From the NCBI GenBank assembly GCA_050084515.1, contig CM114271.1, positions 28,272,001-28,336,000 on the forward strand: DNA of 64,000 nt, read 5' to 3'. This document shows, piece after piece, positions 3,033 to 53,250 of this stretch. Under the pieces are notes generated by a model. That model was not told the DNA's origin. It was given only the letters and a program-made list of their open reading frames with translations, and did not search any database. Position 1 is the first letter of the stretch. Every line of letters starts with the position of its first letter. A program made the translations under genes and the position numbers. Source of the DNA: Blasia pusilla. Its lineage: Eukaryota.

Positions 3033-3649
3033 ATACTCCCCATGCAACATCTCCACTAGTCCTGCTCCAACCAAGTCTTGGCTCCTACTCTGAATCAGAG
3101 CCCTCTCCATATCACTGTACTTGTAGGATCGTTGAAAGATTGACGTATCACTCGACAACTCAATGCGGATCCCCGGTCCATTTAGCGTACCCAAATGCTC
3201 CATGCTAAACGCAAAACAGCTCCTATAACTCTTGAGGAACTAATGTATCCGGCGCCGCTCTCCTCCTCTCAACTTAGGGCCCATATCTGGCTCCCAAGTC
3301 TCCATCGTGACTACGGTAGGACTCTCCGGCGCGGGTATCGGTGGTTGCTATGATGCAACCCCGTCTCGAACAACACTCGGCCGCTCTCCCACAGCCAACT
3401 GCAAACTCTGATCTCCTCCACGTGCAATGCTTGGAACCACGCTTGATACTATGGCTATCATCTCCTGGCGTACCTGCAAAACATCCCAAGAAGTCCAAAG
3501 GTGTCTCTCCTGATCTCCCCTGGTGTCTAGATCTCCTCGGGTCTCGCCCCCAACCACTGCCTCCACCGTCGTTGTAGGCGTGGGGCTTACCAACGCAACC
3601 GTTGTGATCTGTCGTGATCTCACAGGGTGCTGCTCAACCACTCTCAAGC

Positions 3650-4590
3650 TAAGGATCCATGTCAAGCAGTTCATGTCAATCGTCTGACCCAAGACATGGC
3701 GTCTTGATGCCTCTGACATTGACGGTACTATCGTCAATCCTGTGGGAAATCCCATCGCTTGCTCTCTCTCGTTGGCGTTGGGCTCCACCAACCACTGAAC
3801 CTAGTCATCCCAAACCAAGCCAAGACCGGCCTCCTTGTATGCATAAGAAGCGGGAAAACTCACAAACGTGGGCAAGGCTGCCCGTGGTCTGCCTACCCTA
3901 TTGACCACAGTCAACAATGGCCGATCATCGTGCGTCACTGCCTGTGATCGATGACCTGGATCTAGAATGGAATCCACTAACAAATGAGAGGGGCGCTCCA
4001 CTCTTGCATATGCCTTCTGTAACATCCCATGGGGCACCAAGTTGGTCCACCATAGACACGGGCGATGGGCTCTAGAACCTACACTCGCCGCATCCAAGAA
4101 CACTGTTGGGCCGATCCAGGCACGCACCTGATGAGCACTCATCACCACCCGTGACCTGGAGTCTCCTAAGATCGGCACATTCTCCAAAATGTTGGTTGGA
4201 GAACGAGACTAGTGCTCTTGCAACTCTTGTAAGATCCTCAACATCTCCCAAAACAACCTGGACCGAGTGTCAGCCAACCCGCTGCCTTGTCCAACACTTG
4301 ATTGGCCCAGACCTGGCCAACCGGAAATGACCAAATCAATGGTCCCTACCCGCTCTAAGTCATGCGCCCCCAAGAACGAAATATCCCTCGGTAGGGAACT
4401 CTACTACCCCTATACCGCGGACGCAACAATGAGTCGGGAAAACGTAGGCATAACTGCGCCACATGTCGTATTGAGACACACCTCGCAACATCATCACTCT
4501 CCACATCCATGTATTGTTGTACTCGCACTCTTGCCTGCAAAACAGTAGCTAACCTGATGCTAATCCTTCCAAAGAGATCTAACATTCGAA
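3650..4590 (-). pseudogene. C5 cytosine DNA methyltransferase domain (E2, frameshifted; catalytic Cys appears as Gly)
   Basis: LDLFGRISIRL, DLVISGWPGLG, ENVP, RAHRPCLWWTN, ANEREQAMGFP, RRHVLGQ. Confidence 0.8.
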
Positions 4591-4597
4591 TACCCTC

Positions 4598-5323
4598 CTA
4601 CGGGATACACCACACAATGGGTGTGGTATCCAAGGATGTCATTGTAGCACTCCCTGCTACCTCGGGTTCCTCAGACCCGTCATGCTCCGCTGCAAACGCC
4701 TCGCTCCACGCGGTTTGCACGTGCTCATCTGCCAATCGTCCAAGCTCCTCAGTCGAGCCCCACAGCGGCACCTCTCCTCCAAGGAATGATGCGGCTACCA
4801 TAACACTCCTCTCCATAGAAATGTCAGGAACGGGAGTATCCTCTGCATAGACATGTCCCTCAATCAAATCACTAGGCCAAGTGATGGCACTGCTAAATGC
4901 TGCTAAGGTCGTCATCTCTCCTAGTCGTTGCTCGATCACTACACTTGTGAATCGAATGGGTAATGAGCTAAGACGCCCATCACATGACTGCCATCCTAGT
5001 CTGTAGGACCCAGACTCTTCCGTATAATCCAAGGAAAACCCCATCGGGTATAACACTGCTCCACCAACCAAGACGTCGTAGGACTTTGCATCAGTCACTA
5101 TCGCCTTGGCTCGCACCAAAGACTCATCTGTAGGATGTCCTGGGTGAATCCTCACCACAACTTCTTTTCGGGTGATATACTGTGTGGTACTTGCTTCACC
5201 CAAGGATTTTTGTATCCGGAATGGATAACGCTCCTCATCGGCTCTCGTCAAGCCCAATCCTCTGAATGACGCTTTCCCCAATATCAAGGGTTGCGCTCTT
5301 GAATCCAACAAGACGAGCTGCAC
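4598..5323 (-). pseudogene. Aspartic protease and linker (E2)
   Basis: VLLDSRAQPLILG ... YDVLVGGAVL; retropepsin-like D(S/T)G variant. Confidence 0.7.
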
Positions 5324-7822
5324 TCGTTTCTCCCATCGCCCTCAGTGCCTGCACACCAACAACATCACCAACTCTCCAGGTTCTTTGATAAAGACCCATC
5401 GATGGGGTCCTCATCGCTTCGGACAACGTGAAAGACTGAGGAAGCCTAGTTTGTTTCCTGGCTTCCCCTCGCGGTGGATCCAACTCTGCGGCTACTCCAT
5501 GCGTCACAACTGCAGCGGCGTCCATCAGGGCAACCCCGTACATCCAACCAGGATCCTCCATATCTCTAGCTGCTCCATATGATGTTGATGCCACGGATCC
5601 GGCATCAGGTAACCTCAATACCATAGCGGCAATCCACTCGTGTAGCTGTTGTATCTTAACAGCCATCCTAGCCTCACGTCTGACGTCTCCCTCGGCACGT
5701 CTAGGTGGTGGTACTCTACCTCCTCCACGGGCAGCTCCACCACCCTTTCGGGAAACTCCAACTCCTCGTCCCCCAACAGAACCACTTGGTGCACGATCTT
5801 TAGCCCGCCCAGACCGGCTACTCGCTCTGGTGCCCTCTATGGCCCTCGATCCGGACATAACTCTGGATGTAAACTGAAACACGTGGCGCGTGTATGACCA
5901 TACCTCTGACAATAGTCATACTGATAACCACCTGATGTAGCACCATCTCCTCCCCATGGTGAGGCACACGTCCATGACCCTTACGAGTGCAATCGCACTG
6001 ATGATGGGCTCCACCACATGATCAACAAGTAATAGTAGGTGGTTTTTGTTGAGCCGCAGGTCTCTATGGCACAGCCTCCTGGTATCCTCCCTGAGCTCGT
6101 GGTGGCACATTCGACCTATCCTGGAGTCCACGTTGTTGCACTGGTGGTGCAGCCAATCTTGATTGCTCTCGCCTAGAACCCATGGTGGCTACGCTCTCCT
6201 CCGCCATATTGCGCTCAATGTTCTCGGCGGTCCTAAGAACATCTCTCAATATAGGGGAGGTGTTCATAAGAAGCACCCCCTCCCGCACCCGTGTCCGTAG
6301 GGTCCGTTCCAGCATCGCGTACCATGACTAGATAGCTTGAGCCTCTATCATCCCCTGAGTGATGTTGATCAACCGGTGCAAGCGAGAGTAAGCCTCACAC
6401 AAACTCTCACCCGGGCGCCTCTAGAAGTCGTGGATGCTCTGTAACTTCTCTGTCCGTACCCCCTGGTAGCTTGCCCTCAACTTAGCAAAGAACTCAACCA
6501 TAGGGTTGAACCTGGGACAAACCTAGACAGTGCAACTGCTCCCGTACGAGTGACCCCTCCTAAAACGTCACAAGAGGAAGATGAAGTAGCCTCTCATGAC
6601 TCCTCCTCCTCATTTGGGAATGACTCCGTCCATGACACATAATGTGGGTCATAGTAGAGCCTCCACGCCTCGATTTGACGTGCGTATCTTTAAGAGAACT
6701 CATGGTAATCGTCCATGGGCGCCCCCTCTAAATGCTTGAACATACCGCTCCATGCTATAAACGGGCTAAACTCTCTAGAGTTCCTGGCCTGCTGGGAGTT
6801 GCACCAACTCCTAGACTCTGCTATGAAATCGTGCAACTCAATCGTACCTACTACACCTGAAAACCCACGCGGTCCTCTACGTCATAGCTTTTCAAGATGG
6901 ACGCCGTGATGACCCTCGTGCCCCTCTCACCCGATCACTCTCGCCTCACAAGTAATCCCTCAATCACTCATCCCAAACATGCGCACTCGATGTACACTCT
7001 CCCTCCCCGAGACGTGTAACGTGCGGCGACAAGCGGCGTGGTGCGGAAAATCGACCAGGTTATCATCTCATCGACAACCTACCCTCAACTCCGAACATCC
7101 CACACATGTCTATGTCCCCTAAACCATATACATAAATTATACTCTCAACATCCACACACCCAATATCCCCAAATAAACTACCCAAATCCCAGAATCCCTC
7201 ACGTGCAGGGTAAATGACCAGAATAAATAACATGAACACATGTCGATGTCACTCCTCACCAATTGCAAATCTTGACCCCAACTCGGTCGTGGAGACAACT
7301 CCTCCAATCAACAAGTCATACTCATCCCGTATTGACGTTGCTCAAAACTCCTCGATAGACAGTGCGGTTCCAGCGGAACGGTGCGGCGTTGTAGGCGGCA
7401 CGGAATGGCTATGAACGGCATGGCTCTCGATGGTGGGATGGGGCACTCGACGGCATATCCTCCTCAATCAACAATAAACCCACACACTGCTCCACGATGA
7501 GGGTGCGGCCACGAGCGGTAGGGCGCGGTAATCGGCGGCGCGCTGCGGCTACGAGCGTCACGGCACGGTACTCGATCGTCGTCGAGTGGCTACCAATCAC
7601 AACAAAGCAGCATGAAATCAAAACTTAAACACCATAACCAGAGGTCATCTGCCATCACTGGTTGATGACGAAACTCCAATGACAGTGGTGGCCAAAACAA
7701 AGTACGTGGTGGCGATGCAAGTCAGAGAATCAAAAAATGTCGTGGAAGACCCTCCACTCCGTAACGACGACAATGGCAACCAAAGGATGGACAACGAACA
7801 GTCGACCGTTGACGGTGACAAT

Positions 7823-8346
7823 TGTCACGACTGTTAGGATAGATCGGTGGGATCTAGAAGAGCGTCTTCAGGAGTAGTGGAGGACAGGCCCATGAGGTCG
7901 AGAATGACCTGTTGAGGCCCCGGGAAACTTGAGAGAGCAGGTTTCCCCTTTGTTACGGCTCATTACCATTCGTTACGGAGCCATATAGAGAAACTTACTA
8001 TTTCAGGTAAGTTTCCATATTGAGGATAGTTGATTTTCTATTTTTGGTAAGTGGCCCTTGACCTCCTACATCAGATCAAGAGCCAAGGAGGTGACTTGGG
8101 AGCATAGGTTACCATGGAGAGAGCTTGGGAGAGGGGAGGGATATACCTCAAGGAGAGAGAGCTTGAGAGCTTATTCTCTCTTTGTTGAACCTCTTGGCAT
8201 GAGGCGGCGGAGCTATGGTCCCTTGCCTTGTGAGTGTAACCCAAGCCTCTCATTAGGAGAGTGGGTTTGGTTTGACATGAGAGAGAGTGCACACCTTTGA
8301 GAGCTATGGTGTGGGATGGTGTAGAGAGAGATTGGATCTTACTTTA
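7823..8346 (+). repeat. A1 terminal repeat of E1
   Basis: Direct repeat of 17352-17864; identity ends at GGATCTTACTTTA. Confidence 0.9.
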
Positions 8347-9880: not shown

Positions 9881-11396
9881 ATGTCATCGTCAGACAAGGG
9901 GGAGGGTGTAGAGGAGTTTGTGAGCACATCGCCACACATTGTGAGTGGTCCTACCAGTTGGGCGTACGAGATGGACGACCGGGGTAGAGGACCGCGTAGG
10001 TTTTCAGGTGCAGTAGGCACGATTGAGTTGCACGATTTCATAGTAGAGTTTAGGAGTTGGCGTGACTCCCAGCGGGCCAAGAACTCTAGAGAGTTCAACC
10101 CGTTTACATCATGGAACGGTATGTTCCAGCATTTAGAGGGGGTGCCCATGGACGATTACCATGAGTTCTCTTAGAGATATGCAGGTGAGATCGAGGCGTG
10201 GAGGCTCTACTATGACCCACATTATGTGTCATGGACGGAGCTGTTCCCATATGAGGAGGAGTCAAGAGAGGCTACTTCCTCTTCCACTAGTGACGTTTTA
10301 GGAGGGATGACTCCCACGGGAGCACTTGCACCGTCTAGTCGGGTTTGTCCCAGGTTCAACCCTGTGGTAGAGTTCTTTGCTGAGTTGAGGGCGAACTACC
10401 AAGGGGTACGAACGGAGAAGTTGCGGAGCATCCACGACTTCCAGAGGGGCCCGGGTGAGAGTTTACGTGAGGCTTACACTCGCTTGCGCCGGTTGATCAA
10501 CGTCACTCAGGGGGTGACAGAGGCTCAGGCTATCCAGTCATGTACGCGATGCTGGATCGGACCCTGCGGACACGGGTGCAGGAGGGGGTGCTTCTTATGA
10601 ACACCTCCCCTACATTGAGAGATGTTTTTAGGACTACCAAGAACATTGAGCGCAACATGGCGGAGGAGAGCGTAGCCACCATGGGTTATGGGTGAGAGCA
10701 ATCACGATTGAGCAGCAACGTGGACTACGAGATAGGTCAACTGTGGAACCACAAGCTCAGGGAGGATACCGGGAGGCCATGCCACAGAGACCTGCGCCTT
10801 CATATGCGGCTCAGCAGTAGTCGCTTACTATTACTTGTTGGTCATGTGGTGGAGCCCATCATCATCGCGATTGCACTCGTTAGGGTCATGGACGTGTGTC
10901 TCAGCATGGAGGAGGAGATAGTGCTGCACCAATAGGTTCTTAGTGTGACTACTGTCAGAGGTATGGTCAGACACGCGCCAGGTGTTTCAATTTACATCCT
11001 GAGTTACGTCTGAACCGAGGGCTAGAGAGATCACCAGAGCGAGAAGCCAGTCCGGGTGGGCCTAGAGATCGTGCACTAGGTGGTCCCGTTGGGGGACGAG
11101 GAGCTGGAGTTGCCCGACAAGGTGGTGGAGCTGCCCGTGGAGGAGGTAGAGAACCACCACCTAGACGGGTCGAGGGAGACGCCGGACATGAGGCTGGGAT
11201 GGCTACTCAGATACAGCAGCTACAGGAGCAGATTGCCGCTATGGCATTGAGGTTACCCGATGCCGGATCCGTGGCATCGACATCATATGGAGCAGCCAGA
11301 GATTTGGAGGATCCTGGTTGGATGTGCGGGGTTGCCCTGATGGAGGCCGCTGCTGTTGTGACGCGTGGAGCAGCCGCAGAGTTGGATCCACGGTGA
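9881..11396 (+). pseudogene. Gag with two zinc knuckles (E1, disrupted)
   Basis: PRRFSGAVGTIELHDF, FQRGPGESLREAYTRL (retrotrans-gag-like), CWSCGGAHHHRDC and CDYCQRYG-TRARC knuckles. Confidence 0.8.
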
Positions 11397-11914
11397 GGGA
11401 AGCCAGAAAACAGACTAGGCTTCCTCAGTCTTTCACGTTGTCCGAACCGCTGAGGACCCCATTGATGGGTCCTCATCAAAGTTCCTTGAGAGTTGGTGAT
11501 GTTGTTGGTGTGTAGGCATGGAGGGCGATGGGAGAAGCGAGTTTGAGGACTCTTATTGTTGATGCTCAGGAGGGGCATGTGTCGAGCACGTTGTTGGGGG
11601 CGGCCATCATTGTGTGCCGCACTCCTTTATTTTCTGCTTCCGATGTTATGACGTTGGGGGGTACGCCCGCCAAGGCTTTTCGGCTGGCCGCTTCACTATG
11701 TGAGCGCGGAGTTGGAGTTCTTGCATCACGTTCAGAGGTGATTGCAGAGGAGGTGATGGACCTGCCCTTGGAGCGGATGCTCGGGCGGTCCACGTCAGAT
11801 TCATGGCAGGCTGCGGTTGCTAGGATGGCGGAGATGCGCGCTAGACCGGCGATAGAGCATGCCATGGCTTCTCTTGGTGTTGTGTTCCTAGATAACTGAG
11901 GAGAGGTCTTCCAC

Positions 11915-12514
11915 TTGGTGAGTCCTGGAGGTAGAGCTTTTAGTCCGCAGCGTGTCTTGTTGGATTCAAGAGCGCAACCCCTGATGTTGGGGAAAGCGTC
12001 ATTCAGAGGATTGGGCTTGACGAGAGCCGATGTGGAGCATTGTCCATTCTGGATACTGACATCCTTGGGTGGCGCGAGTACCACACAGTATATCACCCGA
12101 CAGGAGGTTGTGGTGAGGATTCGCCCGGGACATCCTACTGATGAGTCTCTGATGCGCGCCAGGGCAATAGTGACAGATGCAGAGTCCTACGACGTCTTGG
12201 TTGGTAGAGCAGTGTTATACCCGATGGGGTTTTCTATGGATTACTGGGAGGAGTCAGCGTCCTACAGACCAAGATGGCAGTCATGTGATGGGCGCCTTAG
12301 CTCATTACCCGTTCAATTCACATGTGCAGTGATCAAGCGACGGCCAGGAGAGATGGCGACCTTAGCAGCATTTAGCAGTGCCATCACTTGGCCTAGTGAT
12401 TTGATTGAGGGACATGTCCATGCAGAGGATACTCCCGTTCCTGACATTTGTATGGAGAGGAGTGTTATGGTAGGTGCATCATTCCATGGAGGAGAGGTGC
12501 CTCTCCTCCACTGA
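11915..12514 (+). pseudogene. Aspartic protease (E1)
   Basis: RVLLDSRAQPLMLG ... YDVLVGRAVL. Confidence 0.75.
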
Positions 12515-12684
12515 GGAGCACCTCTCCTCCAGAACTTCGACGATTGGCAGATGAGCACGTGCAGACCGTGTGGAGCGAGGCATTTGCACCGGAGCGTGAC
12601 GGGTCTGAGGTACCCGAGGTAGCAGGGAGTGCTACGATGACACCCTTGGATACCACACCCATTGTGTGGTGTACCCCGGAGGAG

Positions 12685-13630
12685 GGTATTCGAGTGTTAG
12701 ATCTCTTTGGAGGGATAAGCACCGGGTTAGCTACTGTTTTGCAGGGAGGAGTGCGAGTACAGCAGTATCTGTATGTGGAGAGTGATGATGTTGCGAGGCG
12801 CGTCTCACTACGACATGTGGCGCAATTACGCCTATGTTTTCTCGACTTATTGTCTATGTCCGCAGTACAGAGGTATCAGAGTTCCCTATTGAGGGATATT
12901 TCGTTTTTGGGGGCGCAGGACTTAGAGCGGGTAGGGACCATTGATTTGGTTATTGCCGGTTGGCCATGTCAAGGCCAATTGAGTGCTGGACGAGGCAGCG
13001 AGTTGGTTGACACTCGGTCCATGTTGTTTTGGGAGATGTTGAGGGTCTTACGGAAGTTGCAGGAGCACCTGTCTCGTTCTCCAGCCTACATTCTGGAGAA
13101 TGTGCCGATCTTAGGAGACTCCAAGTCACGGGTGGTGACAAGTGCTCATCAAGTGCGTGCCTGGTTCGGCCCAGCAGTGTTCTTGGATACGGCGAGTGTA
13201 GGTTCTAGAGCCCATCGCCCGCGTCTATGGTGGACCAACTTGGTGCCCCATGCGATGTTATGGAGGGCGTATGCGAGAGTGGAGCGCCCCCATTTGTTAG
13301 TGGATTCCATTCTGGATCCAGGTCGTCGATCAGAGGCAGTGAGGCACGATGATTGACCACCGTTGACTGTGGTCAAGAGGGTGGGCAGGCCGCGGGCAGC
13401 CTTGCCCACGTTTGTGAGTTTTCCCGCTTCCTATGCATACAAAAAGGCCGTTCCTGGCTTGGTTTGGGATGACCAGGTTCAGCGGTTGGTGGAGCCCGAC
13501 GCCGACGAGAGAGAGCGAGAGATGGGATTTCCCACAAGAGTGACGGCAGTACCGTCAATGTTAGAGGCATCACGACGCCATGTCTTGGGTCAGGCGATGG
13601 ACCTGAACTGCTTGACATGGATCCTCAGCT
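12685..13630 (+). pseudogene. C5 cytosine DNA methyltransferase domain, DNMT3/DRM-like (E1; one internal stop)
   Basis: Motif I VLDLFGGISTG, II YVESD, IV DLVIAGWPCQG, VI YILENV, VIII RAHRPRLWWTN, IX EREREMGFP, X RRHVLGQAMD, in canonical order. Confidence 0.92.
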
Positions 13631-14039
13631 TGGGAGTGGCTGAGCAGCATCGTATGAGATCGCGACAGATCACAGGGGTTGCGTTGGTGAGCCCCATGCC
13701 TACCGAGATGGTGGAGGTAGTGGCAGGGGGCGAGACCCGAGGAGATCTACGCACCAGGGGAGATTGGGAGAGACACCCTTGGACTTCTCGGGATGTTTTG
13801 CAGGTACGCCAGGAGATGATAGCCATAGCATCGAGCGTGGTTTTGGGCACTGCACGTGGAGGAGATCAGAGTTTGCAGTTGGCTGCAGGAGAGCGGCCGA
13901 GTGTTGTTGTTCGAGACGAGGTTGCACCATAGCAACCACCGATACCTACGCCGGAGAGTCCTACCGTAGTCACGATGGAGACTTGGGAACCAGATATGGG
14001 CCCTAAGTTGACAGGAGGAGAGCGGCGCCGAATACATCA

Positions 14040-15470
14040 GTTCCTCAGGAGTTATAGGAGTTTCTTTGCATTTAGCATGGAGGATTTGGGTACGCGGAAG
14101 GGACCGAGGATCCGCATTGAGTTGTCGAGTGATACGCCAATCTTCCAATGATCCTACAGGTACAGTGATATGGAGAGGGCTCTGATTCAGAGTAGGAGCC
14201 AGGACTTGGTCGGAGCAGGACTAGTGGAGATGTCGCATGGGGAGTATTGCATCTGCCATTGTCATGCCCGCCAAGAAGGATGTGCATGGCAACTGGATGG
14301 ATAGGCAGATGTGTGGCGATTACCGACCTATCAATCGGCATACGAAGTCCGATAGGTATGCCATGCCCACCCCTGAGGAGATCTTTGATACGATTGGTCA
14401 CGCAAAGGTCTTCAGTTCATTGGATTTGCGAGCCGGATACCATCAACTGCCTATCACATTGGAGGACATGCAGAAGATGGCATTTTGGGGCATCGATCCT
14501 CACGGGAAGGATTGTTTGTACCAGTGGCGGTTCTTACCATTTGGGTTAAAGAATGCTCCGGCTGAGTTTCAGAGGGTCATGGATAGGATCTTGGCTGGTC
14601 TGGATTTTTCTAGGTGTTATATTGATGACATCGTGGTCTTAAGCGCCACGGTTGAGAGCATGAGCGGCATCTAGAGGAGGTGTTTCGACGATTGCAATTA
14701 CATGGGCTGAAGCTACATCCAGGAAAGTGCAAGTTCTTCTACGACCAGATTGAGTACTAGGGTCATACGATATACTCATGGGGCCTTGGTGTTCAGTTGA
14801 CGAAGGTAGAGGCATTCCACGCATTCCACGCCCTACAGATGTGAGCCGTGTTCATGCATTTGTGGGATTGGCGAACTTCTATCGGCGATACGTCAAGGGA
14901 TTGAGTTCGATTGCGAAGCCGCTGACCTTGCTGACCAAGGTGGATCAAGAGTGGCACTGGGGAGATGAGCAAGAGCGAGCATTTTAGTTGCTCAAGGACA
15001 GGTTGATGTCTACGCCGATCTTGAGGAGACCGATCAGGGGGCGTCCTTTCCAGTTGCACACAGATTGGAGCATGTTGGGGCTTGGAGCGGTGCTCACCCA
15101 GCATGATGATGAGGGTAGAGAGTTTGTGGTGGCTTATGCTAGCCGCTCAAACAATGCAGAAGAGGCGAAGTACAGCTCGTATGAGGGTGAGTGCTTGGCT
15201 GCGGTGTGGGCTGTCGCGCATTTCAGGTGTTACTTATTCGGCAACCCCTTTACCATCATCACTGATCATCAACCACTGAAGGGGTTGATGGAGTCAGACA
15301 AGCTTACAGGGAAGCTTGCGAGATGGGCTCTGTTGTTCCACGAGTATGATTTTCAGGTGGTACATAGACCTAGGACGCTCAACCAGGATGCAGATGGGTT
15401 GAGTCGTAACCCATGCCTGAGTCAACAAGATGCGATTGGAGCTCGATGGCATGGAGAGAGTGATCAGGAG
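14040..15470 (+). pseudogene. Reverse transcriptase and RNase H (E1, disrupted)
   Basis: MCGDYRPIN, LDLRAGYHQ, LPFGLKNAPAEFQR, CYIDDIVV; RNase H LHTDWS, EGECLAAVWAV, TDHQPL, DADGLSR. Confidence 0.92.
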
Positions 15471-15699
15471 TAGGTGCCAGGATGGCACCCGTCAGCCTAT
15501 TTAGGCATGTTGGCTATGGAGAGCCAGAGTGTGGAGACTTCGATGGTGAGGTCTAGTGGAGAGTCCTTGGATCCCGAGGCCAGTGAGGAGACGGCAAGTG
15601 GCAGAGATATTCATGATGATGGAGTAGTCTTGGAGTACCTTCGTATTGGCAGCGTTGCGAGCACCGTGGATGCTAGAGAGCGGGATCGGATCCTACAAC

Positions 15700-16860
15700 G
15701 GGCCAGACGGTTCCGTTGGGAGGGGACACACGTTTTGAGGGTTTGGGAGGATGGCAGAGTACGCGTAGTGCCGCATCCTTCGCATAGAGCACGACTAGTG
15801 CAGCATGCCCACGAGGAGTTGGGTCACTTTGGGGTGAAGCGGACGTACAGCTTGCTCCAGATTCAGTATTGGTGGCGAGGCATGCAGACTGACGTTCAGC
15901 AGTTTGTTGCCAAGAGCATGGTGTGTGATCGGGTCCGAGCATCGTTCAATGCTCTAAATCCACAGTTGCATCCATTACCGATCACGGGCTTAGGGTATAG
16001 ATGGAGTTTGGATTTTGCAGGACCTTTGCCTTTGACGGAGCGTCATACTCGTTATGTGTTGGTGATGGTCGAGCACTTCTCGAAGTGGATCGAGTTGGTT
16101 GCATTGCTTGACAAAGCGAGTGAGGGAGTAGCTTATGCCTTCCTTGACAGAGTGCTGAGTCATTATGGCGCACCGGCTGAGATGTTGACAGACCAGGGTA
16201 CCGAGTTTTGCGGTGAGTTCCAGGCCTTGTGTGATCAGGCGCTGATCGACCACCGCACGACTTCGCGAGATCATCCCGAGGCGGATGGATTAGCGGAGAG
16301 AGTTGTGCAGATTGTGAAGAGGGGTTTATGCAAGTATGGCTTGCAGAGAGGGCACCTAGGAGGTTGGGATCTCTAGTTGCCATGGTTGGCGATGGGATTC
16401 AGATTCAACATGCAAGCATCCTTAGCGTCGTTTTCACCATACTTGCTACTTTATGGCCGAGAGCCAGATTTACCTGCGGCCATTTGTCGAGATGTTGGTG
16501 AGGTGCTAGACCTTGATGACCCAGATATATGGGTGTGAGCATATTCTCAGAGGTTTGAGTTGTTTCGGAAAGTGATGCCCATGGCGTTCGAGAACTTGGC
16601 GATTGCGCAGCATCGAGATACGTTGAGGTATGCGACTATTCGGGGTGGTGGTTATCGACCAACTATGCGGAGGTTTCATCAGGGAGATTATGTCTACTTG
16701 CAGCAAACGGCACCGACGACGTTGGATGTGATTGAGGGCGCAATATCCTGAGAGTGCGTGACGTTTTGCCATCCGGTGTTCTCTTGCTGGAGGGACGCGA
16801 TGGTATGGTATGGAAGAACCATGTGTGTAATTGTGCGCCATGTCACCTTCCTAACATTGA
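15700..16860 (+). pseudogene. DDE integrase (E1)
   Basis: HAHEELGHFG zinc-binding region; WSLDFAGPLP, VEHFSKW, LTDQGTEF, HPEADGLAERVVQ. Confidence 0.92.
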
Positions 16861-16899
16861 TGGTCAAGTAGATCCGAGCTTAGCAATAGTTCCTGCAGG

Positions 16900-17046
16900 C
16901 TTGCGTTGTATGTTGTGTAGTTATGCCCGTGGTGCGGCCACGATGCTAGTCTGTGATGGATGCTCGAGAGGTTGGCATATGGCATATCTGACGCCACCTC
17001 TCACTAGGGTTCCTCGGGGATGATGGATATATCCCAGATGTACATA
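16900..17046 (+). pseudogene. C-terminal PHD finger (E1)
   Basis: CMLC...MLVCDGCSRGWHM...LTPPLTRVP.G.W..P.C; complete C4HC3 in the E4 copy. Confidence 0.85.
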
Positions 17047-17224
17047 GAGGAGATACTAGGTAGGTTTCGATTCCAACTTTTTCTGTGATAGGGATGACAG
17101 GAAGGCGACTAACGATGGGGCCACATGAGCACCCGGCCTTTCTGCTCTTAGAGTCCTAGAGATATATGTCGTGGTAGGTAGGGATAGATGGCTATCTGGA
17201 GTTAGAGGGACCTAACCACCAGCT

Positions 17225-17234
17225 AGGGGGGCGA
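17225..17234 (+). other. Polypurine-tract-like motif immediately 5' of B1
   Basis: AGGGGGGCGA; near-identical at the same position in E3 (25031) and E4 (49024-49033, minus). Confidence 0.55.
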
Positions 17235-17974
17235 TTGGAGATATTTTGGTACTTCTCGCCTCTATGTATGGATGCCATGAGTTAGCATGGGATCGTGTGT
17301 GTTTGATGACAACGATGTATGTTGTGTAGCGATATGTATGCGCACGACAGTTGTCATGACTATTAGGATAGATCGGTGGGATCTAGTAGAGCGTCTTCAC
17401 AAGTAGTAGAGGACAGGCCCATGAGGTCGAGAATGACTTGCTGAGGCCCCGGGAAACCTGAGAGAGCAGGTTTCCCCTTCGTTTCGGCTCATTTGAAGCC
17501 ATATAGAGAAACTTACTATTTCGGATAAGTTTCCATGTTGGGGATAGTTGGATTTCTATTTTTGGTAAGTGGCCCTTGACCTCTTACGTCAGGTCAAGAG
17601 CCAAAGAGGTGACTTGGGAGCATATGTTACCATGGAGAGAGCTTGGGAGAGGGGAGGGGTATATCCCAAGGAGAGAGAGCTTGAGAGCTCATTCTCTCTT
17701 TGTTGAACCTCTTGGCATGAGGTGGCGGAGCTATGGTCCCTTGCCTTGTGAGTGTAACCCAAGCCTCTCATTAGGAGAGTGGGTTTGGTTTGACATGAGA
17801 GAGAGTGCACACCTTTGAGAACTATGGTATGAGATGGTGTAGAGAGAGATTGGATCTTACTTTATTGGAGATATTTTGGTACTTCTCGCCTCTCTGTATG
17901 GATGCCATGAGTTAGCATGGGATCGTGTGTGTTTGTGTGTGTGTTCGATGACAGCGATGTGTATGCGCATGACA
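17235..17974 (+). repeat. B1-A2-B2 3' terminus of E1
   Basis: B1 17235-17349, 2-nt spacer GT, A2 17352-17864, B2 17865-17974. Confidence 0.9.
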
Positions 17975-19147: not shown

Positions 19148-19344
19148 CATCAGTCTGTGGAGGAGAGGTGTCGCCTTGGGGCTTGACTTAGGAGCTTCGA
19201 CGCTTAGCCACTGAGCATGTGCAGACCACGTGGAGCGAGACACTTGCACTAGAGTGTGACGGGTCAGAGGAACCCCATGTAGGCAGGAGTGTTGCTATGA
19301 TCGCTTTGGACACCACCCGAATTGTGTGGTGCATCCCTGAGAAG

Positions 19345-20290
19345 GGTATTCGGGTATTGGATCTCTTTGGAGGGATCAACATTGGGTTAGCTATTGTTTT
19401 GCACCTTGGAGTGCGCGTGCAGTAGTACCGGTATGTGGAGATTGATGATGTTACAAGGCGCGCTTGACTTCACCATGTGGCGCTGTTACGCTTCCATTTT
19501 CCCGACTTGTTGTCTGCGTCCGCCATTTAGGGTTACCAGAGTTCCCTACCGAGGGACATTTCATTGTTGAGGGCGCAGGACTTGGAGCGGGTAGGCACCA
19601 TAGACTTGGTCATTGCTGGTTGGCCGTGTCAGGGCCAATCGAGTGCTGGACGAGGAAGCGGGTTAGATGACACTCGCTCCATGTTGTTTTGGGAGATGAT
19701 GCGGATCTTGCGACATTTACAAGAGCATCAACCTCGTTCTCCAACATATATTTTGGAGAAAGTGCCAATTTTGGGCGATTTGAGGTCCGCGTGGTGACGA
19801 GTGCACATCAAGTGCCTGTATGGATGGGCTTGGAAGTGTTGTTAGATGCGATAAGTGTAGGTTCTAGAGCACATCGCCCGCATCTTTGGTGGATCAACTT
19901 GGTACCACATGAGATGTTGCGGACGACTTATGTGACACTGGAGCGTCCCTCTAATTTATTGGTGGATTCTAGATTGGATTCAAACCATCGATCACAAGCA
20001 GTGTGGCACAATGATCGACCGCCGTTGATTGTGGTCAACAAGATTGGCATGCCACAAGTAGCCTTCCCCACATTGGTGAGTTTTCTCGCTTCCTATGCAT
20101 TCAAGGAGGCCGGACGTGGCTTGGTTTGGGACGGACCAGGTATAGATGTTGGTGGAGCCCAATGCTGATGAGCGAGAGTGAGCGATGGGATTCCCCACAT
20201 GAGTGACGGAAGTACCATCACTATCACAGGCATCACGACGTCATGTCTTGGGTCAGGCAATGGACCTGAATTTCTTGACATGGATTTTCA
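19345..20290 (+). pseudogene. C5 cytosine DNA methyltransferase domain (E3, frameshifted)
   Basis: VLDLFGGINIG, DLVIAGWPCQG, YILEKVP, RAHRPHLWWIN, RRHVLGQAMD. Confidence 0.85.
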
Positions 20291-23086
20291 GCTTAGGAGT
20301 AGCTGAGCAACGTCGTTTGAGGATGCAACGGATCACAAAAGTTGCGTTAGTGAGCCCCATGCCTACCGCGATGGTTGAGGAAGTGGCTGAGGGTGAGACT
20401 CGAGGAGATTGACACACCAGGGGATGATTGGGGGAGACACCCTTGGACTTCTTGGGATGTTTTTGCAGGTACGTGAGGAGATGATAGCCACAGCATCAAG
20501 CGTGGTTCTGGGTACTGCACGTGGAGATGAGAGTTATATTGTCCAAGATGGGGTTGCACCATAGCAACCATCGACATCCGCGTCGGAGAGTCCTACCGTA
20601 GTCACGATGGAGACTTGGGAGCCACATATGGGCCCTAAGTTGACAGGAGGAGAGCGGTGTCGAATACATCAATTCCTTGGGAGTTATAGGAGTTGTTTTG
20701 CATTTATTATGCATGATTTGGATACGCTAAAGGGTCCAAGGATCCGCATTGAGTTGTCGAGTGACACGCCGATCTTCCGACGACCCTACATGTACAATGA
20801 CATGGAGAGGGCTATGATTCAGAGTAGAAGCCAGGACTTGGTTGGAGTAGAACTAGTGGAGATGTCGCATGGAGAGTATGCATCTGCCACTATCATGCCT
20901 GCCAAGAAGAATGTGCATGGCAATTGGAAAGATAGGCGGAAGTGTGGGGATTACTGACCCATCAATCGGTAGACGAAATCCAATAGGTATACCATGCCCA
21001 CCCCTAAGGAGATCTTTGATGCGATTGGGCATCCAAAGGTCTTCAATTCATTGGATTTACGAGCCATATACCATCAACTGCCTATCATATTGGAGGACAA
21101 GTAGAAGACCGCATTTAGGAGCATCGATCCTCACGGGATGGATTGCTTGTACCAATGGGGGTTCTTACCATTGGGGTTAAAGAACACCCCGGTTGAGTTT
21201 CAGAGGATCATGGATACGATCTTGGGAGGTCTGGATTTTTCTAGGTGTTATATTGATGACATCGTAGTCTTTAGCGCCACAGTTGAGAAGCATGAGCGAC
21301 ATGACATCTAGAGGAGGTATTTCAACGATTGCACTTACATGGGCTGAAGCTACATCAAAGCAAGTGCAAGTTCTAGTACGACCAGATTGAGTACTTGGGT
21401 CATACGATATACTTGGGGGGCCTTGGTATGCAACAGACAAAGGTAGAGGCTATTTCATGCATTCCACGCCCTACAGATGTGAGTCAAGTTCGTGCATTCA
21501 TGGGATTGGCAAACTTCTATCGATGGTACGTCAAAGATTTCAGTTTGATTGCGAAGTCGCCAACCTTGATGACCAAGGTGGATGAGGAGTGGCATTGGGA
21601 GGATGAGCAAAAGAGAGCATTTAAGATGCTCAAGGACAGATTGATGTCCGCGCCCATATTGAGGAGACCGATCAGAGGTCGTCCTTTCCAGTTGCATACC
21701 GATTGGAGCATGTTGGGGCTTGGAGCCGTGCTCACCCAACATGACGATGATGGTAGAGAGTTTGTGGTGGGTTACCCTAGTTGCTCTAACAATATTGTAG
21801 AGGCAAAGTATAACTTGTATGAGGGTAAGTGCCTGGTTGCAGTGTGGGGTGTCGCACATTTCAGATGTTATCTATTCGGAATTCCCCTTACCATCATTAC
21901 TGATCATCAACCATTTAAGTGGTTGATGGAATCCAAAAAGTTTACAGGGAAGCTTGTGAGATGGGCTCTTTTGTTGCAAGAGTATGACTTCCAGGTGGTG
22001 CATAGACCTCGGATGTTCAACCAGGATGCAGATGGTTTTGAGTCGTAACCCATGCCTGAGTCAGCGAGATGCGACAAGAGCTCGTTGGCATGGTGAGAGT
22101 GATGAGGAGTTGGTTCTACGATGGCATGCGTGAACCTATTTGGGCTTGTTGGCTATGGAGAGCAAGATTGCTGAGATTTCGACGGCAAGGTCTGATGGAG
22201 AGTCCTTAGATCCACAGGCCGGTGAGGAGATGGAAGGTGGCCGAGATATTCATCACGATGGAGTGATCTTGGAGTACCTGCGTATTGGCAGCGTTGCGAG
22301 CACAGTGGGTGCTAGAGAGCGGGATTGGATCCTATAGCGAGCTAGACAGTTTTGGTAGGAGAGCACACATGTGTTGTGAGTGTGGGAGGATAGTAGAGTG
22401 AGTGTAGTGCCTCATCCTTTGTAGAGAGCACGTTTGGTGCGTCATGCCCACGAGGAGTTGGGTCATTTTGGAGTGAAGTGAACTTACAGCTTGCTCCAGA
22501 TTCAATGTTGGTGGCGAGGCATATAGATTGACGTTCAACAGTTTGTTGCCCGATGCATGGTGTGTGATGGAGTCCACAGTTGCATCCACTTCTGATCATG
22601 GATTTAGGTTATAGATGGTGTTTGGATTTTGCAGAACCTTTGCCTTTGACGGAGTGCCATAGTCGTTATGTGTTGGTGGTGTTCGAGCATTTCTCGAAGT
22701 GGATAGAGTTGGTTTCATTGCTTGACAAAGGGAGTGAGGGAGTAGCATATTCCTTCCTAGATTGAGTGTTGAGTCATTACGGCACACCGACTAAGGTGTT
22801 GATAGACCAGGGTACAGAGTTTCGCGTGGAGTTTTAGGCCTTGTGTGATTAGGCACTGATTGACCACTGCACTACTTCGCGAGATCATCCTAGACGGATG
22901 GACTAGGAGAGTGGGTTGTGCAGACGGTAAAGAGAGGACTACGCAAGTATGGCTTGAAGAGAGGTCACCTATGAGATTGGGACCTTCAGTTGTCGTGGTT
23001 GGCGATGGGATACAGATTCAACAGGCATACATCCTTAGTGTCTTTCTCACCATACTTGTTGCTTTATGGCTGAGAGCCACATTTAC

Positions 23087-29254: not shown

Positions 29255-29285
<31 letters not shown>

Positions 29286-30427: not shown

Positions 30428-30486
30428 TATCTAACCCTATATTGCATCAGGGTGCGGGGCACCCTGATGCAATATAGGGTTAGATA
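30428..30486. repeat. Perfect inverted repeat (28-bp arms, GGG loop)
   Basis: TATCTAACCCTATATTGCATCAGGGTGC-GGG-GCACCCTGATGCAATATAGGGTTAGATA. Confidence 0.95.
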
Positions 30487-41507: not shown

Positions 41508-41613
<106 letters not shown>

Positions 41614-52043: not shown

Positions 52044-52312
52044 TGGCTGCTATGCAACCCCCTCACAAGATGGTACACCCTTAGCTACACCATCATCTGA
52101 GCAAATAACTCCTCCACGAGCATGAGCAACCAACTCCACATGCCCAGCCATTACATCCCATTTACTCCAAGGATGCAAAATACTACTCTCCTCGCCCCCA
52201 GCCGATGCCTCTACCGTCCCGGTAACCATCGAGCTCATTACAAGGGGTGGAAGACCCACAGACATAGTCCGAAGTCGACGCTGCTCGGCCATACCAAGAC
52301 TCAAAATCCAAG

Positions 52313-53250
52313 TCAAAAATTCAGGTCCATGGCCTGACCCAACACATGACGTCGTGAAGCCTCGTAAATAGAAGCAACTTTGTCACACCAAAGAGCAAAT
52401 CCCATCGCACGCTCTCTCTCATCAGCGTTAGGCTCCACCAAGTGTCGCACATGAGAATCCCATACAAGCCCCAGACCACCTTCTCTGTAAGCATGTGACG
52501 AGGGAAAACTCACAAATGTGGGTAGTGCCATCCTAGGCTGGCCCACACAGTTCACCACTGCCATGGGTGACCGATCAATAACCCTCACCACCTGAGAAAG
52601 TCGCCCAATATCCAAGATACTATCCACGGTAGGGCAAGGATCCCGCTGCACTGCATCATATGCTCGACGTAGAGCCTCCCTGGGCAACAAGTTTGTCCAC
52701 CACAAGCATGGAAGATGTGCACGCGAGCCAACTCGCGCTGCATCCAACAACACCGTTGGTCCAATCCAAGACCGCACCTCATGAACACTCGCCATCATCC
52801 GGGTCCGAGTGTCATCCAACAATGGAACATTCTCCAGAATGTAAGCTAGAGCACGTGCCTGATGAACCTGAAGATGTCGTAACACCCGTAACATCTCCCA
52901 AAACAATCGAGACCTAGGGTCATGTAATCCCTCATCACGACCAGCACGTGTATGACCCTGACATGGCCATCCAGCAATCACCAAATCCACAGGACCAACC
53001 CTCTCAAGATCCTGCGCCCCCAACAATGCAATGTGTGATGGTAAAGCACGCTGGTATCCACGAATAGCTGATGGCGGCAACAACTCAAGATATCTCTGCA
53101 TCAATTGACCAATATGTTGGGATGAGACTCTCTGGGCCGTCTCATCTCGCTCCACATACACGTATCTCCTTGCAGACAGAATACCGGCCGCAACATGCTG
53201 CTAGCCTAAACCAGTGCTAATCCCACTAAAGAGATCTAACACACAAATGC
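52313..53250 (-). pseudogene. C5 cytosine DNA methyltransferase domain (E4)
   Basis: VLDLFSGISTG, YVERD, DLVIAGWPCQG, YILENVP, RAHLPCLWWTN, ERERAMGF, RRHVLGQAMD. Confidence 0.9.

What the first reader, a model, noticed from the sequence alone, without database searches (positions are those of the whole stretch)
12685..13630. Retrotransposon-encoded DNMT3-like cytosine methyltransferase inside pol
Seen: ordered C5-MTase motifs (FGGISTG, GWPCQG, ENV, RxRxWW, ERxMGFP, LGQAM) lie between protease and RT in four copies from two diverged families. The catalytic PC is kept in E1, E3 and E4. Known: the motif wording resembles DNMT3/DRM catalytic domains, and DNMT-bearing retrotransposons were reported in dinoflagellates and a charophyte (de Mendoza et al. 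2018). Inference: a polyprotein-released enzyme could methylate the element's own cDNA or integration site. An abundant lineage in a land-plant-like genome would extend that earlier report.
Basis: partly seen in the sequence, partly recalled or inferred. Interest (0 to 1): 0.88.

Follow-up and report, generated by a model that had tools for sequence, protein, structure and literature searches.

The report
Dead retrotransposons carrying a DNMT3-like methyltransferase
The window holds four decayed copies of a plant jumping gene that carries its own DNA-methylating enzyme, of a kind first described in a green alga and here seen in a moss- or liverwort-like genome.

Summary
Four copies of a Ty3/gypsy LTR retrotransposon (E1 +, E2 -, E3 +, E4 -) carry a C5 cytosine methyltransferase domain between protease and RT, with motifs I, IV, VI, VIII, IX and X in the normal order (Pfam PF00145, 36 bits against a cut-off of 22). 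By profile and by predicted fold the domain is closest to DNMT3A/B/C, then DRM, then bacterial enzymes. dN/dS between the families is 0.18-0.19, as for RT. All four copies are pseudogenes, so nothing here is active. RNA reads 95-99% alike show sense transcripts of close paralogues.

The element has the same domain order as a Klebsormidium nitens gypsy polyprotein (43% identity). Its DNMT falls in the same clade, together with Marchantia, Calypogeia, Sphagnum and Closterium proteins. It is therefore a new member of the known streptophyte Gypsy-DNMT3 kind.

Three things are new here:
- A sister lineage in chlorophyte algae has the DNMT moved to between RNase H and integrase.
- Integrase is followed by a PHD finger.
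- A stop codon conserved in all four copies lies between DNMT and RT in one frame. This puts the DNMT at the end of a Gag-protease-DNMT ORF.

The enzyme's function (methylation of the element's own cDNA) remains inferred. Placement inside DNMT3 was not tested with a rooted tree.

The parts
7817..8346 (+). E1 5' LTR (aligned part; true ends not resolved)
   Evidence: 92.1% identity over 530 nt to 17346-17864. Starts TGTCA.
9986..11396 (+). E1 gag region
   Evidence: tblastn of Marchantia P0006 residues 9-195 and 290-454. Retrotrans_gag is weak: 19.6 bits, below the cut-off of 24.1.
11582..12505 (+). E1 protease-like region; the active-site DSG reads DSR (LLDSR at 11957-11971)
   Evidence: tblastn of P0010 residues 27-334. 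Homologues read VLLDSGAQPLMLGK; DSR in E1. No Pfam hit in E1. Asp_protease_2 on homologue P0064 at 22 bits, below its cut-off of 24.3.
12643..13650 (+). E1 DNMT3-like C5 methyltransferase domain, motifs I-X
   Evidence: PF00145. Profile against PDB: DNMT3A 1.1e-27. AF2 model pLDDT 92.1. Foldseek top matches are DNMT3A/B/C.
13354..13356 (+). In-frame TGA that breaks E1's DNMT (E2 has Arg here)
13930..13932 (+). TAG between DNMT and RT in E1, context TAG CAA CCA; RT goes on in the same frame
   Evidence: Shared by all 4 window copies and by loci L001 and L002.
14225..14674 (+). E1 reverse transcriptase (YIDD at 14618)
   Evidence: RVT_1 6.8e-17
14988..15473 (+). E1 RNase H
   Evidence: RT_RNaseH 3.7e-35
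15474..16376 (+). E1 integrase (H2C2 zinc domain and core)
   Evidence: Integrase_H2C2 1.4e-15, rve 4.8e-14
16907..17023 (+). E1 PHD finger after integrase
   Evidence: PHD 22.6 bits, just under the cut-off of 24. PF00628 is on record for many relatives. 45.7 bits in P0048.
17346..17864 (+). E1 3' LTR (aligned part)
3354..4823 (-). E2 DNMT region, dead: PC is PG, motif I is spoiled, stops and a frameshift. TAG at 3348-3350. RT to integrase is mostly deleted.
19192..20561 (+). E3 DNMT region, dead: stops and three or more frame changes, ENV is EKV, PC kept. TAG at 20562-20564. The element is cut at its 5' side at about 19148.
52077..53254 (-). E4 DNMT region (second family): a stop just after motif I, PC and ENV kept, RxR lost. 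TAG at 52050-52052.
59411..64000 (-). Fifth copy (LTR, PHD, integrase, RNase H, RT), cut by the window's end before its DNMT

Best explanation
What it is (shown). The window is a nest of at least five decayed copies of one Ty3/gypsy LTR retrotransposon lineage. Its coding layout is Gag - aspartic protease - DNMT3-like C5 cytosine methyltransferase - conserved UAG - RT - RNase H - integrase - PHD finger. The DNMT is an integral, selected part of the element. It is the same lineage, with the same domain order, as a gypsy polyprotein of Klebsormidium nitens, the species in which KnitGypsy-Dnmt3 was described. The lineage is also present in Closterium, Sphagnum, Marchantia and Calypogeia. None of the window's copies is functional.

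How intact members most likely work (inferred).
1. The genomic RNA is translated into a bulk Gag-protease-DNMT protein.
2. Occasional read-through of the UAG adds RT-RNase H-integrase-PHD.
3. The DNMT uses SAM and the Cys of motif IV (PC) with the Glu of ENV, as a de novo enzyme of DNMT3 type. It methylates the newly made cDNA, or DNA at the integration site.
4. The new copy thus enters the genome already carrying host-like methylation. The PHD finger on integrase helps to choose the chromatin target.

My odds: about 0.9 for the identity, about 0.35 for the cDNA-methylation step.
For: Domain and motifs: PF00145 above cut-off; motifs in frame.

Same place in every copy: the domain sits in the same position in 4 of 4 window copies. 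It also lies inside uninterrupted ORFs of relatives. P0064 reads CCHC-protease-DNMT-RT-RNase H-integrase in one 2188-aa ORF, and P0006 reads gag-protease-DNMT in 1278 aa.

Selection: dN/dS of the DNMT is 0.175-0.192 between families (bootstrap 0.10-0.25) and 0.23-0.25 against E3. It is 0.78 (0.48-1.31) for the young pair E1-E2. For comparison, E1-E4 gives RT 0.178, RNase H 0.155 and integrase 0.092.

Catalytic residues across 40 aligned family members: the Glu of ENV and the second Arg of RxR (R194) are invariant; the Cys of PC and the first Arg (R192) are kept in 90% or more.

DNMT3 affinity:
- The family profile against PDB gives DNMT3A 100.5 bits, 3B about 90, 3C 88, DRM 51-65, M.HhaI 37 and DNMT2 29. 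DNMT1 does not appear at E <= 0.01.
- All 74 metagenome loci outside the element family score 78 bits or less with the same profile.
- The AF2 model has pLDDT 92.1 and pTM 0.92.
- Every Foldseek match listed (32 rows, down to rank 47) is DNMT3A/B/C, with target-normalised TM about 0.8 for catalytic-domain chains.

Klebsormidium link: 43% identity over 253 aa, E 2e-56. The order is PR-DNMT-RT-RH-INT. It falls on the same side of the 100/100 split in the tree.

Stop between DNMT and RT: it lies at the same aligned codon in 6 of 6 DNA copies examined (4 in the window, plus L001 and L002), and RT follows in the same frame. Five database ORFs end 72-94 aa after motif X.

Transcription: about 500 RNA reads per run lie on the stretch laid (3001-23000) in 3 of 3 raw RNA runs. 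Over E1 the first mate is mostly on the minus strand, which means a plus-sense RNA in the usual stranded library. Depth in the DNMT bins is 0.7-3.3.
Against: - No activity is shown for any member of this lineage. In yeast the KnitGypsy-Dnmt3 domain gave no methylation, which the authors call inconclusive (PMC5890265, section 10, passage read).
- All window copies, and loci L001 and L002, are broken.
- Only 14-28 of about 500 RNA reads per run are 99% or more alike. The transcripts therefore come mainly from other copies, and low depth says little about protein.
- Placement inside DNMT3 is by best match only. No host DNMT3 or DRM sequence could be brought into a tree.
- The ESM Atlas feature search ranks phage methylases at 0.95, right after the protein's own cluster (a lead only).
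- Read-through is inferred from a conserved stop and its context, and has not been measured. Two of the six contexts (L001, L002) read CAA CCC, not CAR YYA.
- CpG observed/expected in the elements is 0.65-0.75, not lower than in the rest of the window. There is thus no special mark of self-methylation.
Confidence: 0.8

Rival explanations
1. The DNMT acts on host chromatin, not on cDNA. Brought in with the integration complex, it methylates DNA around the insertion site. The PHD finger on integrase may guide it. The effect would be to build or join heterochromatin, limiting harm and copy number (self-restraint or a safe haven).
For: A PHD finger is linked to integrase in the same elements. DNMT3-type enzymes are de novo enzymes guided by histone readers (established knowledge). 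The window is a nest of copies inserted next to and into each other.
Against: The DNMT sits in the upstream ORF with Gag and protease, not next to integrase, in this architecture. Nothing here shows its target. Nesting of old copies is common for any LTR element.
Confidence: 0.2
2. The domain is kept for something other than DNA methylation. It could bind nucleic acid, methylate RNA as DNMT2 does, or serve as a structural part of the Gag-protease precursor.
For: No methylation by the Klebsormidium domain in yeast (PMC5890265, passage read). The authors raise RNA methylation for another TE DNMT. The domain is made with Gag, an RNA-binding protein.
Against: The catalytic Cys, the Glu of ENV and the RxR are kept in 90-100% of 40 diverse members. 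Fold and profile are closest to DNA enzymes of the DNMT3 type and far from DNMT2, at 29 bits.
Confidence: 0.15
3. The methyltransferase came from a bacterium or phage (a Dcm-like enzyme) and only resembles DNMT3.
For: The Atlas feature search lists phage methylase clusters at 0.95. Metagenome loci with the same motif IV wording exist at 24-31% identity.
Against: The same family profile scores DNMT3A at 100.5 bits. It scores 78 bits or less for all 74 such loci and 37 bits for M.HhaI. Every Foldseek match listed is DNMT3. The Atlas structure search puts DNMT3A clusters first, at TM 0.75.
Confidence: 0.07
4. The DNMT pieces are fragments of a host DNMT3 gene that happen to lie inside the elements. 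This would be chance capture by one copy that then spread, with no function for the element.
For: All four copies here are pseudogenes.
Against: The domain holds the same position in two families with dS 1.65 and dN/dS 0.18. It also holds it in hundreds of polyproteins from other organisms: 185 clusters at E <= 1e-30. The DNMT and RT trees give the same grouping.
Confidence: 0.02

Closest known systems
KnitGypsy-Dnmt3 of Klebsormidium nitens (de Mendoza et al. 2018, PMC5890265)
   Same: A Ty3/gypsy LTR element with a non-rearranged DNMT3-related domain in the polyprotein, and Ka/Ks below 0.2. A K. nitens polyprotein (P0299) has the same order PR-DNMT-RT-RH-INT. It is 43% identical in the DNMT and sits in the same clade.
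   Different: The host here is bryophyte-like, not a charophyte alga. The copies here have plain direct LTRs, whereas the paper's legend says the Klebsormidium repeats are arranged as in DIRS. Here the layout is two ORFs with a conserved stop after the DNMT, and a PHD finger follows integrase. No PHD was found in P0299, which is a partial gene model. I could not check that P0299 is one of the paper's copies, because the supplements are closed.
Chlorophyte gypsy elements with RT-RNase H-DNMT-integrase-PHD (Scenedesmus, Monoraphidium, Haematococcus, Cymbomonas and Volvox proteins, found here)
   Same: The same DNMT family (30-44% identity over the whole domain), the same RT/RNase H/integrase/PHD lineage, and one clade in the RT tree.
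   Different: The DNMT sits between RNase H and integrase, not before RT. The DNMTs form a separate clade with 100/100 support.
Host DNMT3A/3B/3C (animals) and plant DNMT3
   Same: Best matches by profile and by fold. Motif order is I to X. The TRD is small.
   Different: About 21% identity. No PWWP or ADD domains. Motif IV reads GWPCQG/D, not GSPCN. It is encoded inside a transposon and lacks introns.
DRM2 (plant domains-rearranged methyltransferase)
   Same: Second-best family by profile, at 51-65 bits.
   Different: DRM has its motifs circularly permuted. Here the order is not rearranged.
SymbioDIRS-Dnmt3 of dinoflagellates, and DAM- or chromodomain-carrying LTR elements
   Same: Retrotransposons that carry chromatin-modifying or chromatin-reading modules. 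DAM-bearing relatives with a PHD finger turned up in the RT search (P0384, P0390).
   Different: A different element class (DIRS) or a different enzyme (adenine methylase). In the RT tree the DAM-bearing and chromodomain elements fall outside the DNMT-bearing clade.

Membership tests
C5 cytosine DNA methyltransferase (Pfam PF00145) | Profile match above the curated cut-off | tested here: met
   36 bits against 22, E 6.7e-9
C5 cytosine DNA methyltransferase (Pfam PF00145) | Catalytic motifs I (FxGxG), IV (PC), VI (ENV) and VIII (RxR), plus IX and X | tested here: met
   All present in E1. PC is lost in E2, ENV in E3, and RxR in E2, E3 and E4. They are conserved across 40 family members.
C5 cytosine DNA methyltransferase (Pfam PF00145) | Open reading frame able to give an enzyme | tested here: not met
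   0 of 4 window copies are open through the domain.
DNMT3 family | Closest known relatives by sequence profile and by fold are DNMT3 enzymes | tested here: met
   DNMT3A 1.1e-27 against M.HhaI 1.5e-8. Foldseek's listed matches are all DNMT3. Other metagenome methylases score 78 bits or less.
DNMT3 family | Falls inside the DNMT3 clade in a rooted tree with DRM, DNMT1/CMT, DNMT2 and bacterial enzymes | not testable with these tools
   No host DNMT3 or DRM sequence could be fetched. All 150 listed hits of the library search were element copies. The published tree places the Klebsormidium TE copies as a divergent Dnmt3-related clade (PMC5890265, section 9, read).
DNMT3 family | N-terminal reader domains (PWWP and ADD in animals) | tested here: not met
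   No such Pfam hit on the window ORFs or on P0006, P0064, P0299, P0358 or P0048. A PHD finger lies after integrase instead.
DNMT3 family | De novo methylation of DNA | not testable with these tools
   This needs an enzyme assay. The published yeast test of the Klebsormidium domain was negative and inconclusive.
DRM | Circularly permuted motif order (VI-X before I-V) | tested here: not met
   The order here is I, IV, VI, VIII, IX, X. DRM chains match only through their C-terminal part.
Streptophyte Gypsy-DNMT3 lineage (KnitGypsy-Dnmt3) | DNMT inside the coding region of a Ty3/gypsy LTR element | tested here: met
   LTR pair. The order gag, PR, DNMT, RT, RNase H, integrase.
Streptophyte Gypsy-DNMT3 lineage (KnitGypsy-Dnmt3) | DNMT and domain order shared with a Klebsormidium nitens element | tested here: met
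   P0299: 43% identity, E 2e-56. Order PR-DNMT-RT-RH-INT. Same side of the 100/100 split.
Streptophyte Gypsy-DNMT3 lineage (KnitGypsy-Dnmt3) | Purifying selection on the DNMT | tested here: met
   dN/dS 0.175-0.25 for all pairs except the young pair E1-E2.
Streptophyte Gypsy-DNMT3 lineage (KnitGypsy-Dnmt3) | P0299 is one of the copies the paper named | not tested
   The main text gives no gene numbers ('kfl' occurs 0 times). The supplements are closed.

The most novel reading that the evidence does not exclude
One ancient Ty3/gypsy lineage has carried a DNMT3-type methyltransferase and a PHD reader through the whole green lineage, both chlorophytes and streptophytes. It moved the DNMT once within its coding region, from before RT to after RNase H or the reverse. 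In bryophytes it expresses the enzyme at Gag levels through a leaky UAG of tobamovirus type, and it is still transcribed. It would then be a long-lived, self-methylating retroelement present in the genetic model Marchantia, not a one-off capture in Klebsormidium.
Probability: 0.3. Interest if true: 0.7.

Novelty: new member of a known kind. Interest (0 to 1): 0.5.

Why it matters
Transposon-borne DNA methyltransferases turn the usual picture around, because the parasite carries the host's silencing tool. The only plant-side case in print that I could find is in the alga Klebsormidium, where it was read as a local capture and the enzyme assay failed.

Members in land plants, including the transformable model Marchantia, would let the function be tested by genetics. 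The tests would be mutation of the catalytic Cys, methylomes of new insertions, and read-through reporters.

The wider pattern seen here has two domain orders, split between streptophyte-named and chlorophyte-named hosts. It suggests a much older and more stable partnership than was reported.

The window's own copies are dead, so the window adds a record, not a working enzyme.

Tried and rejected
- Whole genome: none is held, so copy number in the genome and a search for intact copies could not be done.
- Homodimer prediction. A second job with the intact Calypogeia homologue P0001, residues 300-640, two copies, gave 'no answer' (score 0.01). This is no evidence either way.
- Sequencing runs. 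No listed holder is on record as RNA in the index. The raw RNA runs were laid instead.
- Rfam: no match in the window.
- Rooting the DNMT tree with host DNMT3. PDB sequences are not held as proteins, so I left them out.
- Metagenome loci for the DNMT-RT junction. Only 2 of 80 loci (L001, L002) carried both sides of it.
- LTR ends, primer binding site, polypurine tract and target-site duplication of E1 were not resolved. The 5' and 3' LTRs align only over 530 nt, and other LTR copies align further.
- CpG depletion as a mark of self-methylation. CpG observed/expected is 0.65-0.75 in the elements against 0.39-0.59 in the other parts of the window, so there is no support.
- Literature. Seven searches found no paper in the held library that describes DNMT-bearing gypsy elements in liverworts, mosses or chlorophytes. 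Subscription journals and supplements were not seen.
Full report
**1. The observation**

The stretch 12685-13630 lies in a frame that is open from 12445 to 13932 apart from one TGA at 13354-13356.
- FGGISTG at 12706-12726
- GWPCQG at 12958-12975
- ENV at 13096-13104
- RPRLWW at 13216-13233
- EREMGFP at 13513-13533
- LGQAM at 13585-13599

Pfam's DNA_methylase (PF00145) matches at E 6.7e-9, 36 bits against a cut-off of 22.
- E1, 12445-13929 (+)
- E2, 4823-3354 (-)
- E3, 19192-20561 (+)
- E4, 53254-52077 (-)

The catalytic Pro-Cys is kept in E1, E3 and E4 and reads PG in E2.

**2.

- E1 has the in-frame TGA, where E2 has Arg. Its protease active site reads DSR where Marchantia relatives read DSG.
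- Projected on E1's frame, E2 has 7 stop or gapped codons in 336, E3 has 7 and E4 has 2. tblastn needs several frames for E2 and E3.
- E3 reads EKV for ENV. The RxR of motif VIII survives only in E1.
- E2 has also lost most of RT to integrase. E3 is cut at its 5' side at about 19148, next to an inverted LTR copy.

**3. Anatomy of the element**

E1 is flanked by direct repeats, 7817-8346 and 17346-17864, which are 92.1% alike over 530 nt. Between them lie, in order:
- a gag region (tblastn with Marchantia P0006; Retrotrans_gag is weak)
- a protease-like region
- the DNMT
- RT (RVT_1, 6.8e-17)
- RNase H (3.7e-35)
- integrase (H2C2 and core)
- a PHD finger (22.6 bits, just under the cut-off of 24)

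A fifth copy at 59411-64000 (-) runs off the window before its DNMT. The rest of the window holds other transposon-like ORFs and repeats. The window is a transposon nest.

**4. A conserved stop after the DNMT**

All four copies carry a TAG at the same aligned codon, about 110 codons after motif X in E1. RT goes on in the same frame:
- E1, 13930-13932
- E3, 20562-20564
- E2, 3348-3350 (-)
- E4, 52050-52052 (-)

The context is TAG CAA CCA in E1, E2 and E3, and TAG CAG CCA in E4. Two related metagenome loci have TAA CAA CCC (L001) and TAG CAA CCC (L002) at the same place, again with RT in frame. These were the only 2 of 80 loci that carried both sides of the junction.

Five database ORFs of the bryophyte clade end 72-94 residues after motif X (P0001, P0002, P0005, P0006, P0026). 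RT-first ORFs begin just after that point.

The other stops in the copies are not shared by all of them. One codon is stopped in both E2 and E3.

I read the shared stop as an ancestral stop that separates Gag-protease-DNMT from RT-RNase H-integrase-PHD, passed by read-through. Stop-CAR-YYA is the leaky-stop context of tobamoviruses. That is recalled from my own knowledge, not from a call. Read-through itself is inferred.

**5. Selection**

dN/dS values (Nei-Gojobori) on codons projected to E1's frame:

| Pair | dN/dS | Bootstrap 2.5-97.5% |
|---|---|---|
| E1-E4 | 0.175 | 0.10-0.24 |
| E2-E4 | 0.188 | |
| E3-E4 | 0.192 | |
| E1-E3 | 0.233 | |
| E2-E3 | 0.248 | |
| E1-E2 | 0.78 | 0.48-1.31 |

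The young pair E1-E2 behaves as expected for decay after insertion. For E1-E4 the other domains give RT 0.178, RNase H 0.155, protease 0.171, PHD 0.138 and integrase 0.092. dS between the families is about 1.65 and thus near saturation, so the ratios are rough.

**6. Which methyltransferase family**

- Sequence against PDB. phmmer of E1's first 237 residues ranks DNMT3A (1.8e-9), 3C and 3B first, then DRM (about 1e-3), DNMT2 and M.HhaI.
- Profile against PDB. A profile of 40 family members (A1) gives DNMT3A 1.1e-27 (100.5 bits), DNMT3B 2e-24, DNMT3C 8e-24, tobacco DRM 8e-17, DRM2 1e-12, M.HhaI 1.5e-8 and DNMT2 5e-6. No DNMT1 appears at E <= 0.01.
- Profile against metagenome loci. The same profile was run on the six-frame ORFs of all 80 metagenome loci that share the motif IV wording. 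It scores the six element loci at 128-501 bits and every other locus at 78 bits or less.
- Fold. An AlphaFold2 model of E1's domain (X at the stop, 40-row alignment) has pLDDT 92.1 and pTM 0.92. All 32 Foldseek rows listed, down to rank 47, are DNMT3A, 3B or 3C, with E about 1e-19 and target-normalised TM about 0.8 for the catalytic-domain chains.
- ESM Atlas. Its structure search also puts DNMT3A clusters first (TM 0.75). Its feature search lists phage methylases at 0.95 (leads only).
- Motif order. It is not permuted, so this is not a DRM.

'DNMT3-like' is therefore supported by best match. A rooted tree with host DNMT3 could not be made here.

**7. Relatives**

The word-index search with E1's domain found 51 longer proteins. 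The best are 65% identical and come from Calypogeia fissa, Marchantia polymorpha (over 20 entries), Sphagnum and Closterium, plus unnamed metagenome proteins. The exhaustive library search found 2278 clusters at E <= 1e-3, 624 at <= 1e-10 and 185 at <= 1e-30. The best 150 cover the whole domain at 30-66% identity, and many are polyproteins of 1000-3400 residues.

Local domain mapping of 299 fetched proteins shows two layouts:
- 17 have the DNMT before RT/RNase H (type A), and 37 more are protease-DNMT pieces.
- 137 have it after RNase H (type B), and 34 more are DNMT-integrase pieces.
- 74 are undecided.

Pfam coordinates confirm both layouts. Type A appears in P0064, in Klebsormidium P0299 (DNA_methylase 312-369, RVT_1 770-930) and in Closterium P0358. 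Type B appears in P0048 (RVT_1 166-318, DNMT 894-955, integrase 1277-1446, PHD 1657-1701).

Named hosts, as the sources label them:
- Type A: Marchantia, Calypogeia, Sphagnum, Closterium, Klebsormidium.
- Type B: Scenedesmus, Monoraphidium, Haematococcus, Cymbomonas, Volvox.

**8. Trees**

DNMT domain, careful IQ-TREE (LG+C20+F+G4, ultrafast bootstrap / SH-aLRT), 66 rows. I dropped 12 long, gappy or duplicate rows and thinned the Marchantia and type B swarms.
- Types A and B are the two sides of one branch (100/100).
- A clade of 15 rows holds all four window copies with Marchantia, Calypogeia, Sphagnum and unnamed rows (100/100).
- E1-E3 form a clade (100/99).
- E4 groups with two Sphagnum proteins and P0004 (100/90).
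- Klebsormidium P0299 lies on the A side.
- The larger quick tree (118 rows) gave the same picture with weaker support.

RT-RNase H, quick tree (LG+G4, SH-aLRT only), 102 of 219 eligible rows.
- All DNMT-bearing rows fall in one clade of 86 (96).
- Chromodomain, DAM-bearing, angiosperm and animal gypsy rows fall outside it.
- Type B is one clade (100) among type A branches.

This fits one capture followed by one move of the domain. The inner forks are open, however, and one row without a detectable DNMT (P0365) lies inside the clade.

**9. The Klebsormidium link and the literature**

E1's domain is 43% identical to P0299 over 253 residues (E 2e-56).

De Mendoza et al. 2018 (PMC5890265; I read the abstract, all of section 9, and passages of sections 7, 10 and 11) describe Dnmt3-related, non-rearranged, intron-less DNMTs in the Pol ORF of a gypsy element of K. 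nitens. They report Ka/Ks below 0.2 and call it an acquisition 'in the K. nitens lineage'. The words Marchantia and liverwort do not occur in that text. In yeast the KnitGypsy-Dnmt3 domain gave no methylation, which they call inconclusive. They propose self-methylation of cDNA for DIRS elements.

Later papers cite the case as 'streptophytes (Gypsy-DNMT3)' (bioRxiv 10.64898/2026.05.21.726589, passage) or 'as previously reported in streptophytes' (PMC12344493, passage). Hoguin et al. 2023 report no DNMT3 in green algae of MMETSP (PMC9998398, passage).

Seven searches of the held library found no description of such elements in liverworts, mosses or chlorophytes. Supplements and subscription journals were not seen, so this is not proof that none exists.

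**10. Expression**

Three raw RNA-seq runs carrying the same coded species label as the best DNA holder were laid on 3001-23000.
- About 500 reads per run lie on it, and 14-28 of them are 99% or more alike. The rest are 95-99% alike, so they come from close paralogues.
- Over E1 (9671-18341) the first mate lies mostly on the minus strand: depth 1.4-16 there against 0-2.2 with the first mate on the plus strand, apart from one near-empty bin (11005-11671).
- Over the minus-strand copy E2 (4335-5001) the first mate lies on the plus strand.

In the usual stranded library this means sense transcripts of both orientations. The DNMT bins have depth 0.7-3.3. The family is therefore transcribed at a low level. 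Nothing shows that the window's own copies are.

**11. Mechanism and odds**

Shown: a selected DNMT3-like domain with conserved catalytic residues is an integral part of a gypsy lineage. It lies upstream of a conserved stop.

Inferred: Gag-protease-DNMT is made in bulk, read-through gives the RT-integrase part, and the DNMT methylates new cDNA or DNA at the target site.

I put about 0.9 on the identity and about 0.35 on cDNA methylation. Methylation of host chromatin at the target gets about 0.2, and a non-DNA or non-catalytic role about 0.15.

**12. Verdict**

The copies in this window are fossils.

It is a new member of the known streptophyte Gypsy-DNMT3 kind. The wider facts gathered on the way are leads worth a proper study, most easily in Marchantia:
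- members in land plants
- a chlorophyte sister lineage with the domain moved
- the PHD finger
- the conserved stop

Noticed in passing
window 13930-13932, 20562-20564, 3348-3350 (-), 52050-52052 (-); L001 6401, L002 2686: A stop codon lies at the same aligned place between DNMT and RT in 6 of 6 copies, and RT continues in the same frame. The context is stop-CAA/CAG-CC(A/C), like the tobamovirus leaky-stop motif (recalled). It suggests a two-ORF layout expressed by read-through.
   Followed up: partly
proteins P0048, P0072, P0259, P0260, P0295, P0388 and about 130 more: A sister lineage has the order RT-RNase H-DNMT-integrase-PHD. Its named members are all chlorophyte algae. Its DNMTs form a separate clade (100/100), and its RTs form one clade inside the DNMT-bearing gypsy clade.
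   Followed up: yes
window 16907-17023 and relatives: A PHD finger follows integrase, where chromoviruses have a chromodomain. With the DNMT, this gives the element both a writer and a reader of chromatin marks.
   Followed up: partly
proteins P0384, P0390, P0392: Gypsy polyproteins with a Dam-type adenine methylase domain (PF05869), two of them (P0384, P0390) also with PHD, turned up among the RT relatives. The two that were put in the RT tree (P0384, P0390) fall outside the DNMT-bearing clade.
   Followed up: no
protein P0365: A 2028-aa polyprotein with PHD but no detectable DNMT lies inside the DNMT-bearing RT clade. This may be a loss or a very diverged domain.
   Followed up: no
window 12532-14249 against E2 and E3: Of the changes derived in E1 and E2, 29 of 57 and 52 of 88 are C>T or G>A. 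The rate at CpG is 2.4 times that at other C/G in E1 and 1.2 times in E2. E2 and E3 share a stop at one codon that is Arg in E4.
   Followed up: partly
window 7670-8336: The LTR bin has the highest RNA depth (20-30), with molecule ends piling up at 8326-8328. This may be a transcript end or start within the LTR.
   Followed up: no
window 26853-29147 and 46319-48989: There are long ORFs that look like a DNA-transposon transposase and like a non-LTR (LINE) endonuclease plus RT. This is judged by eye only and was not searched.
   Followed up: no
window 39878-40883, 41510-41609, 42312-42572: Tandem repeats: a 352-nt unit x 2.9, (CT)50, and a 132-nt unit x 2.
   Followed up: no
window 26000-39000: An AT-rich stretch (GC 0.37) has stronger CpG depletion (observed/expected 0.39) than the elements (0.65-0.75).
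   Followed up: no
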